The translations under genes and the position numbers were made by a program. The notes below the pieces were generated by a model. That model was given only the letters and a program-made list of their open reading frames with translations, searched no databases and had not been told where the DNA came from. DNA of 63,653 bases, counting the filler, from Octopus bimaculoides (lineage: Eukaryota): the NCBI RefSeq assembly GCF_001194135.2. It is 6 parts of 5 records of this genome, joined end to end, with 100 filler letters (N's around TTAATTAATTAA, not from the genome) between each part and the next. Parts side by side here need not be neighbours in the genome. Positions count along the whole stretch, not along the records: positions 54,408 to 61,059 come from NC_068987.1; 5 more parts are not named here. One strand, given 5' to 3'. Within the stretch, counting starts at the first letter, position 1; each line of letters opens with the position of its first letter. Shown one piece after another: positions 58,545 to 60,019 of this stretch.

Positions 58545-58756
58545 ATGACTACGGAAACAGCTCTCAAGAGAGACGAATCGATATTGCTCTCATTGACTCA
58601 CGAGAACTATTCTGAACTGCGGTCAATACAGCATCCATTCTGGGACCTTAAGGAACAAATTCCGCGGGAGTATCATACGATTATTGGAGTAATAACATCT
58701 TTTTCACTTATTTTGTCTATCGGTGCCAATTGCCTGGTCTTCCTAGTAATCTGCAA
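58545..58756 (+). CDS. Coding exon of a class A GPCR, probably a rhabdomeric-type opsin (N-terminus plus TM1); partial gene
   Basis: MTTETALKRDESILLSLTHENYSELRSIQHPFWDLKEQIPREYHTIIGVITSFSLILSIGANCLVFLVICK: HPxW..P motif before TM1, TM1 Asn, NYS sequon; phase-2 donor AA|GTAAGT at 58757; polypyrimidine tract and AG (58532-58533) upstream. Confidence 0.75.
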
Positions 58757-60019
58757 GTAAGTCTTCATACAATTTTCTTTTCAAAATATTTATTCTTTAC
58801 TTCATCCAGCATTAACTTTTGGTCTGTTTTCTTTCTTTTCTGGCCTTCTCAGTTATAATCAAGCATAAAAAATAAACGACTTCTACATGAGTAAATACGT
58901 TATATAGTGTATTCCTTTCAATTTGTAGCGTGATTCTATTTCCCAATGTTTCTTCGCATCAGCTGTATCACTGAATATATTATCATACAGAATATATTTA
59001 TTTTCATTTTTATTGAGCCCTTTACTGCAGAACCGTCCCTAAGTTTACTGGTGACCTGAGCGATTTGATTTTCGGCGCTCATATAAGTAAAATTTTCTAA
59101 TACTTTATTAGGAGTGAAGTCTGTCAAATGTACGAATTAACTTTGTCATAATTTATTAAATATAAAAATTAAATGTTTACTGTGTTTATTATATTCATGT
59201 TTCTCTTTGAATTTAGAAGATTTCAAGCTATGAATAGCGACCCTCAAACACGTGGTTTCACATCCATTTTTCGATTTGTTTGACCCTTCAACCGAACTTG
59301 ATTGTCATTAATCATTTTGCACAGTGTTCTGAATAACTTACGTGACATCTATTCTCATAATTATAATAGCTCTGTCCGTAAGCTATGTATATATGTACAT
59401 ATATATATATATATACATACATACATACATGTATATATATATATATAAATATGTATATATATATATATATATATATATNNNNNNNNNNNNNNNNNNNNNN
59501 NNNNNNNNNNNNNNNNNNNNNNNNNNNNNNNNNNNNNNNNNNNNNNNNNNNNNNNNNNNNNNNNNNNNNNNNNNNNNNNNNNNNNNNNNNNNNNNNNNNN
59601 NNNNNNNNNNNNNNNNNNNNNNNNNNNNNNNNNNNNNNNNNNNNNNNNNNNNNNNNNNNNNNNNNNNNNNNNNNNNNNNNNNNNNNNNNNNNNNNNNNNN
59701 NNNNNNNNNNNNNNNNNNNNNNNNNNNNNNNNNNNNNNNNNNNNNNNNNNNNNNNNNNNNNNNNNNNNNNNNNNNNNNNNNNNNNNNNNNNNNNNNNNNN
59801 NNNNNNNNNNNNNNNNNNNNNNNNNNNNNNNNNNNNNNNNNNNNNNNNNNNNNNNNNNNNNNNNNNNNNNNNNNNNNNNNNNNNNNNNNNNNNNNNNNNN
59901 NNNNNNNNNNNNNNNNNNNNNNNNNNNNNNNNNNNNNNNNNNNNNNNNNNNNNNNNNNNNNNNNNNNNNNNNNNNNNNNNNNNNNNNNNNNNNNNNNNNN
60001 NNNNNNNNNNATATACACA

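What the first reader, a model, noticed from the sequence alone, without database searches (positions are those of the whole stretch)
58545..58762. Opsin-like exon, possibly a second rhabdomeric opsin rather than the main visual rhodopsin
Seen: QHPFWDLKEQIPREYHTIIG..SIGANCLVFLVICK followed by AA|GTAAGT. Known, from memory: octopus rhodopsin has IHPHWAKFDPIPDAVYYSVG..GILGNGVVIYLFSK, and human melanopsin has a phase-2 intron in the codon nine residues after the TM1 Asn (FCR). This exon has a phase-2 donor at that same offset. The sequence clearly differs from the recalled visual rhodopsin and has AN instead of GN. Inference: a divergent r-opsin paralogue, relevant to extra-ocular photoreception in cephalopods. 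Only one exon is visible, so a non-opsin class A GPCR is not excluded.
Basis: partly seen in the sequence, partly recalled or inferred. Interest (0 to 1): 0.75.

Follow-up and report, generated by a model that had tools for sequence, protein, structure and literature searches.

The report
First exon of octopus r-opsin2
This is the first coding exon of the octopus's already known second rhabdomeric opsin gene (r-opsin2), spliced across a 219-kb intron to the rest of the gene; an older published gene model lacks this exon, and the protein likely senses light, which has not been tested.

Summary
Confirmed, and already known. Window 58545-58756 is coding exon 1 of the cephalopod non-canonical rhabdomeric opsin, r-opsin2. 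Contigs from 3 of 4 runs laid leave the genome at the donor and continue into a 30-mer found once in the genome, 219,190 nt downstream. Five GT-AG exons give 427 aa with DRY, the counterion Glu and the TM7 retinal Lys. The best of 150 listed hits is Idiosepius rhabdomeric opsin2 (63%, E 2e-60). Exons 2-5 match the published Octopus bimaculoides r-opsin2 row. The visual rhodopsin is a separate gene on C23, 33% identical, sharing both its introns. Two useful details. (1) The older reference model (380 aa) begins with a 23-codon segment lacking TM1; this exon completes the seven-helix protein. Likely a retinal photopigment in brain, optic lobe and some retinal cells; I found no functional test.

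The parts
58545..58756 (+). Coding exon 1 of r-opsin2 (codons 1-70 plus two bases of Lys71): extracellular N-terminus and TM1; = G000:C7:88465677-88465888
   Evidence: single copy in the genome by protein search. The start Met is inferred; the transcript's 5' end was not resolved.
58605..58613 (+). N-glycosylation sequon N21-Y-S in the N-terminal tail
   Evidence: pattern scan; use is inferred
58632..58643 (+). HPFW motif, aligned to HPHW of the visual rhodopsin
   Evidence: alignment
58671..58754 (+). TM1 (about residues 43-70) with the conserved Asn62 (58728-58730), preceded by Ala instead of Gly
   Evidence: hydropathy and alignment; GN in 53 and AN in 2 of the 64 of 154 relatives with residues at these columns
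58757..58762 (+). Splice donor GTAAGT, phase 2, same codon position as intron 1 of the visual rhodopsin gene
58757..61059 (+). First 2.3 kb of the 219,190-nt intron 1 (the pack joint follows). Exons 2-5 lie outside the window at G000:C7:88685079-212, 88691059-137, 88697839-8426 and 88702199-469
58452..58533 (+). Pyrimidine tract, (TA)n and CAAG just upstream of the ATG: a possible splice acceptor for an unseen 5' exon
   Evidence: sequence only; contigs were cut at the repeat mask there, so untested

Best explanation
The stretch is coding exon 1 (N-terminus and first membrane helix) of octopus r-opsin2, the known non-canonical rhabdomeric opsin, spliced over a 219-kb intron to four exons that complete a 427-residue receptor, which likely works as a retinal-based light sensor. 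Shown: the exon, the exon 1-2 splice, the open five-exon frame, orthology to cephalopod r-opsin2, and the residues for photochemistry (Lys310 = squid rhodopsin's retinal Lys; Glu189 at the 181 counterion site; Tyr120 at the 113 site; Cys117/Cys195; DRY; NPxxY). Inferred from established r-opsin biochemistry: 11-cis-retinal binds Lys310 as a Schiff base, and light makes a bistable active state (about 85%). This state would drive Gq-PLC-TRP signalling at low gain (about 55%, because HPK is replaced by NPI) in brain and optic-lobe cells and a subset of retinal cells.
For: Contigs of X1, X12 and X2 (three studies, two organism codes) run from the exon into the same exon-2 sequence, which occurs once in 2.34 Gb. 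All four introns are GT-AG and the frame stays open to a TAA at codon 428. Exon 4 vs PDB: squid rhodopsin first (E 3e-37), then spider Kumopsin1 and bovine rhodopsin; the first non-opsin GPCR only at E 7e-10. Best of 150 listed hits among 1.84 billion proteins: Idiosepius 'rhabdomeric opsin2', 63%; sister to the model with support 0.996. Exons 2-5 match by eye the row 'Obimaculoides_ropsin2_XM_014916694.1', and exon 1 matches the Sepia r-opsin2 row at 17 of 34 columns by eye (PMC7553075 supplement). The visual rhodopsin is elsewhere (C23, 3 exons, 455 aa, 100 of 300 identical) and both its introns fall at the same codon and phase. Expression in papers: adult cuttlefish brain and optic lobes, squid retinal 'r2' photoreceptors that also express Gq, PLC and arrestin, low in octopod retina/optic lobe.
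Against: HPK, described as the hallmark of Gq-coupled opsins and present in most non-canonical r-opsins (PMC10733189), is NPI here; 0 of 154 relatives have NPI, 53 have HPK and 25 HPR. TM7 is also unusual (KCIT for KAS). Only the exon 1-2 junction was seen in contigs; junctions 2-3, 3-4 and 4-5 rest on GT-AG frame continuity and the published predicted model. The runs are 'RNA?' by guess with no tissue on record, depth 4-6, and no DNA run was laid as a control. X6's contig stops at 58755 without a junction. My tree does not resolve deeper placement (supports 0.3-0.88 around long branches), and the published support for the non-canonical clade is PP 0.96 / BS 48. No retinal binding or signalling assay was found in my searches.
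Confidence: 0.9

Rival explanations
1. Same gene and a real photopigment, but with HPK replaced by NPI/NPL it no longer couples mainly to Gq (Gi/Go, or weak or arrestin-biased signalling).
For: 5 of 5 coleoid r-opsin2 rows carry NPI or NPL, against HPK/HPR in 78 of 154 relatives. The helix 5-6 loop is 4 residues shorter than in rhodopsin. The signalling cascade of non-canonical r-opsins is listed as unknown.
Against: DRY and NPxxY are intact. Squid cells with r-opsin2 express Gq and PLC. Many relatives vary at this tripeptide (52 different forms among 154).
Confidence: 0.25
2. The protein acts mainly without light (thermal, chemical or scaffold role), or binds retinal only as a store or photoisomerase.
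For: Low expression in eyes and presence in deep nervous tissue; divergent TM7 and helix 8.
Against: Lys310, Glu189, Tyr120 and the disulfide cysteines are all kept, and Lys, Glu and DRY are kept in the decapod rows that cover them. It keeps DRY and NPxxY and does not group by sequence with the retinochrome rows seen.
Confidence: 0.12
3. The exon belongs to a non-opsin class A GPCR, to xenopsin/peropsin/retinochrome, or is a dead fragment.
For: The exon alone has no significant family or database hit.
Against: It splices into r-opsin2 exon 2; the frame is intact with the TM7 Lys; a xenopsin-like exon lies on another contig (L043).
Confidence: 0.01

Closest known systems
Octopus bimaculoides r-opsin2 / Obim-opnGq-nc (XM_014916694.1; XP_014772180.1, 5 exons, 380 aa)
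   Same: Exons 2-5 match the published alignment row by eye in all columns shown; five exons.
   Different: That row begins ...IVIVLNPG and has no TM1. A 23-codon ATG...GT segment with this ending lies 1.9 kb before exon 2 (C7:88683119-189), and 23+357 = 380 aa. The exon in this window gives 427 aa with TM1. Whether newer annotation versions already fix this could not be checked.
Decapodiform r-opsin2 (Idiosepius BAR90772.1, Sepia, Euprymna)
   Same: 62-63% identity over TM4-H8; same AAKC..C.NP..YA.SNP[IL] end; homologous TM1 exon.
   Different: Decapods keep FGN in TM1; this octopus has GAN.
Cephalopod visual rhodopsin (r-opsin1; squid rhodopsin 2Z73; C23 gene here)
   Same: Retinal Lys, Glu181-site counterion, Tyr at the 113 site, DRY, NPxxY, HPxW N-terminal motif, both introns in place and phase.
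   Different: 33% identity; NPI for HPK; two extra introns (in DR|Y and after helix 8); intron 1 of 219 kb against 1.3 kb; no Pro/Gln/Gly repeat tail but an 89-residue tail with 20 Ser/Thr.
Non-canonical r-opsins of other lophotrochozoans (Ramirez et al. 2016 clade, as cited in PMC10733189 and PMC7553075)
   Same: Published trees place cephalopod r-opsin2 here.
   Different: Most keep HPK; coleoid r-opsin2 does not.

Membership tests
Animal opsins (class A GPCR) | 7tm_1 domain above the Pfam cut-off | tested here: met
   Exon 4 scores 90.9 bits against a cut-off of 30.5; exon 2 matches profile 12-55
Animal opsins (class A GPCR) | Retinal-binding Lys in TM7 (K296 site) | tested here: met
   K310 aligns to K306 of the C23 rhodopsin and to squid rhodopsin's AKAS Lys
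Animal opsins (class A GPCR) | Forms a photopigment with retinal | not testable with these tools
   needs expression and spectroscopy
Rhabdomeric (r-) opsins | Closest sequence relatives are r-opsins | tested here: met
Rhabdomeric (r-) opsins | Glu at the 181 site and Tyr at the 113 site (site numbering recalled) | tested here: met
   E189 and Y120 align to E181 and Y112 of the C23 rhodopsin
Rhabdomeric (r-) opsins | Introns shared with the r-opsin1 gene | tested here: met
   2 of 2 rhodopsin introns at the same codon and phase
Canonical Gq-coupled r-opsin (r-opsin1 / visual rhodopsin) | HPK tripeptide after NPxxY | tested here: not met
   NPI at 324-326; not filed as canonical r-opsin
Canonical Gq-coupled r-opsin (r-opsin1 / visual rhodopsin) | Groups with molluscan visual rhodopsins | tested here: not met
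   the C23 gene groups with Patella, Nucella and Ylistrum sequences (0.978); the model does not
Cephalopod r-opsin2 | Orthology: sister to a named r-opsin2, match to the published row, SNP[IL] signature | tested here: met
Bilaterian non-canonical r-opsin clade | Placement in that clade in a rooted tree | tested here: inconclusive
   My midpoint-rooted FastTree on 218 columns has weak deep support; published trees assign it
Rhabdomeric (r-) opsins | Gq coupling | not testable with these tools
   no assay found in paper searches

The most novel reading that the evidence does not exclude
Coleoid r-opsin2 is a second working pigment whose clade-wide HPK-to-NPI/NPL change has rewired its G-protein coupling and whose absorption differs from the visual rhodopsin. 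Cephalopod retina and brain would then hold a second spectral channel, against the single-pigment view. The full 427-aa frame recovered here is what an assay in octopus would need.
Probability: 0.15. Interest if true: 0.75.

Novelty: already known. Interest (0 to 1): 0.2.

Why it matters
The gene is known, so this is not a discovery. It has modest practical value. A 380-aa model without TM1 was used as a reference in at least two opsin studies, and this exon supplies the missing helix, so the full protein can be expressed. r-opsin2 is the obvious untested candidate in two open questions, extra-ocular light sensing and cephalopod colour-blindness, and the loss of HPK makes its signalling worth one experiment.

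Tried and rejected
Exon-1 peptide against PDB sequences, Pfam and the 5.8-billion set (longer proteins): nothing significant. Exon 4 against the same set also returned nothing at E<=1e-20, although HMMER over the representatives found 2,906 relatives at E<=0.001, so those blanks reflect the word index. Motif scan of the first 200 kb downstream (23% N): no opsin exon, because exon 2 lies further on. My first exon borders were off by one and were corrected. The look-up of sequencing runs listed no holder on record as RNA ('no RNA holder listed'). No reads were laid over exons 2-5 and no DNA control was laid, so junctions 2-3, 3-4, 4-5 and any use of the 23-codon alternative first segment remain unseen. 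No Atlas look-alikes were obtained. No structure was predicted. A search of intron 1 for open frames of 120 aa or more showed repeats and transposon-like pieces, no evident nested gene (judged by eye; small exons and the 47 kb of N could hide one). Earlier scan notes: none found. Rejected: that it is the visual rhodopsin (C23), the xenopsin (L043) or a non-opsin GPCR.

Full report
Observation. The window is a pack of stretches; the finding lies in the stretch 54408-61059. From ATG 58545 the + strand reads 70 codons without a stop and then AA|GTAAGT. Alone, the 70 residues hit nothing in Pfam, only a chance match in PDB sequences and nothing in the large protein set. The stretch maps to G000:C7 (58540 = 88465672), and the exon is single-copy by protein search.

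Splicing. Twenty of the 24 runs listed hold at least half of the exon's words; none is on record as RNA, 14 of the 20 are guessed to be. I laid 4 of them. All four cover only 58539-58759 and nothing of the flanks. Three (X1, X12, X2; three studies, two organism codes) run on into one and the same foreign sequence; X6 ends at 58755 without a junction. That 30-mer occurs once in the genome, at C7:88685082, directly behind a pyrimidine tract and AG. The three extra bases of fit (58757-58759) arise because exon 2 starts with GTA, like the donor. Intron 1 is 219,190 nt, 47,155 of them N. The 5' end is unresolved, because contigs were cut at the (TA)n repeat before the ATG; an upstream exon is possible.

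Gene model. A Pfam 7tm_1 search of the genome had a hit at C7:88697837-8373. Reading the region gave exons 2-5. The five exons (212, 134, 79, 588, 271 nt; intron phases 2, 1, 2, 2; all GT-AG) give an open frame of 427 residues. Aligned to the genome's visual rhodopsin, it keeps H30, N62, C117, Y120, DRY (141-143), E189, C195, K310 and NPxxY (316-320), but has NPI at 324-326 where rhodopsin has HPK.

Identity. Exon 4 matches squid rhodopsin best among solved structures (E 3e-37), with opsins filling the top ranks and the first non-opsin at E 7e-10. Among 1.84 billion representatives the best hit is P0003 (63%, E 2e-60; next 41%), named 'rhabdomeric opsin2 [Idiosepius paradoxus]'. I looked up names for 10 of the 150 hits; 7 had names. 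A FastTree tree of the model, the rhodopsin and all 150 hits (218 columns; the four added cluster members left out) pairs the model with P0003 (0.996) and places the C23 gene with Patella, Nucella and scallop sequences (0.978); deeper nodes near the model are weak. In the supplement of PMC7553075 the row 'Obimaculoides_ropsin2_XM_014916694.1' matches exons 2-5 by eye in every column shown. The visual rhodopsin lies on C23 (3 exons, 455 aa), the same exon count and length as Obim-opnGq in PMC10733189 Table S4.

What is added. The published octopus row starts ...IVIVLNPG and lacks TM1; the second octopus row starts later still. Table S4 of PMC10733189 lists the non-canonical model at 5 exons and 380 aa. 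A 23-codon ATG-to-GT segment ending in those residues lies 1.9 kb before exon 2, and 23+357 = 380. The older model therefore most likely picked a nearby false first exon because the real one is 219 kb away (inference). The window's exon matches the TM1 of Sepia r-opsin2 at 17 of 34 columns by eye, so it is the conserved first exon. I could not check whether newer annotations already include it, nor whether the short segment is ever spliced.

How it likely works. By established opsin biochemistry (own knowledge), Lys310 would hold 11-cis-retinal as a Schiff base with Glu189 as counterion, as in bistable invertebrate rhodopsins; light would open the cytoplasmic face through DRY and NPxxY, and the Ser/Thr-rich tail (20 of 89 residues) would serve kinase and arrestin. 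Gq-PLC is the default: squid retinal cells with r-opsin2 express Gq, PLC and arrestin (PMC12240821). Against it, HPK is called the hallmark of Gq-coupled opsins and is kept by most non-canonical r-opsins, yet 5 of 5 coleoid r-opsin2 rows have NPI or NPL; among 154 relatives HPK occurs 53 times, HPR 25, NPL once (P0003), NPI never. I put photopigment at about 85% and Gq as main partner at about 55%. Reported expression: adult cuttlefish brain and optic lobes, not embryos or skin; low in retina and optic lobe of octopods (10.64898/2026.07.15.738692); squid retina and non-visual tissues. One paper says almost no functional work exists on these opsins in cephalopods (10.1101/2021.11.08.467834); my searches (open-licence library only) showed no assay in listings or passages read.

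What I saw of each paper. PMC7553075: passages, section 25, supplement passages and part 2 of file 2. PMC10733189: passages and supplement passages. PMC12240821: passages and section 9. 10.64898/2026.07.15.738692, 10.1101/2021.11.08.467834, PMC5648526 and PMC11993263: passages only (bioRxiv supplements, which hold octopod expression tables and alignments, were not seen and could already contain this exon). Ramirez 2016 and Yoshida 2015: only as cited. Bovine site numbers (113, 181, 296) are recalled, K296 also named.

Verdict. The gene is cephalopod r-opsin2, already known. Interest 0.2: a small annotation fix and an untested coupling question.

Noticed in passing
G000:C7:88683119-88683189 (inside intron 1, in L024): 23-codon ATG...GT segment that accounts for the N-terminus and the 380-aa length of the older reference model; lacks TM1; probably a mis-predicted first exon, use as an alternative exon not excluded.
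   Followed up: partly
L043:1453-2052 (G000:C11627, unplaced contig): Last exon of a xenopsin-like gene: TM6-TM7 with Lys, nearly the same as Sepia and Idiosepius xenopsin C-terminal rows.
   Followed up: partly
G000:C23:35250308-35254528: Visual rhodopsin (r-opsin1) gene, 3 exons, 455 aa, introns 1,284 and 1,569 nt, against 219 kb for the homologous first intron of r-opsin2.
   Followed up: yes
G000:C7:88520505-88520915 (-) and other places in intron 1; C7:88438266-88439330 (-) upstream: Open frames resembling mariner-type transposase and LINE-like fragments (resemblance recalled, not searched).
   Followed up: no
window 59107-59208: 77% match to G000:C1:160741583-683, a short dispersed repeat near the start of intron 1.
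   Followed up: no
window 58452-58533: Pyrimidine tract interrupted by (TA)n and ending in CAAG, 11 nt before the ATG; possible acceptor of an unseen 5' exon.
   Followed up: no
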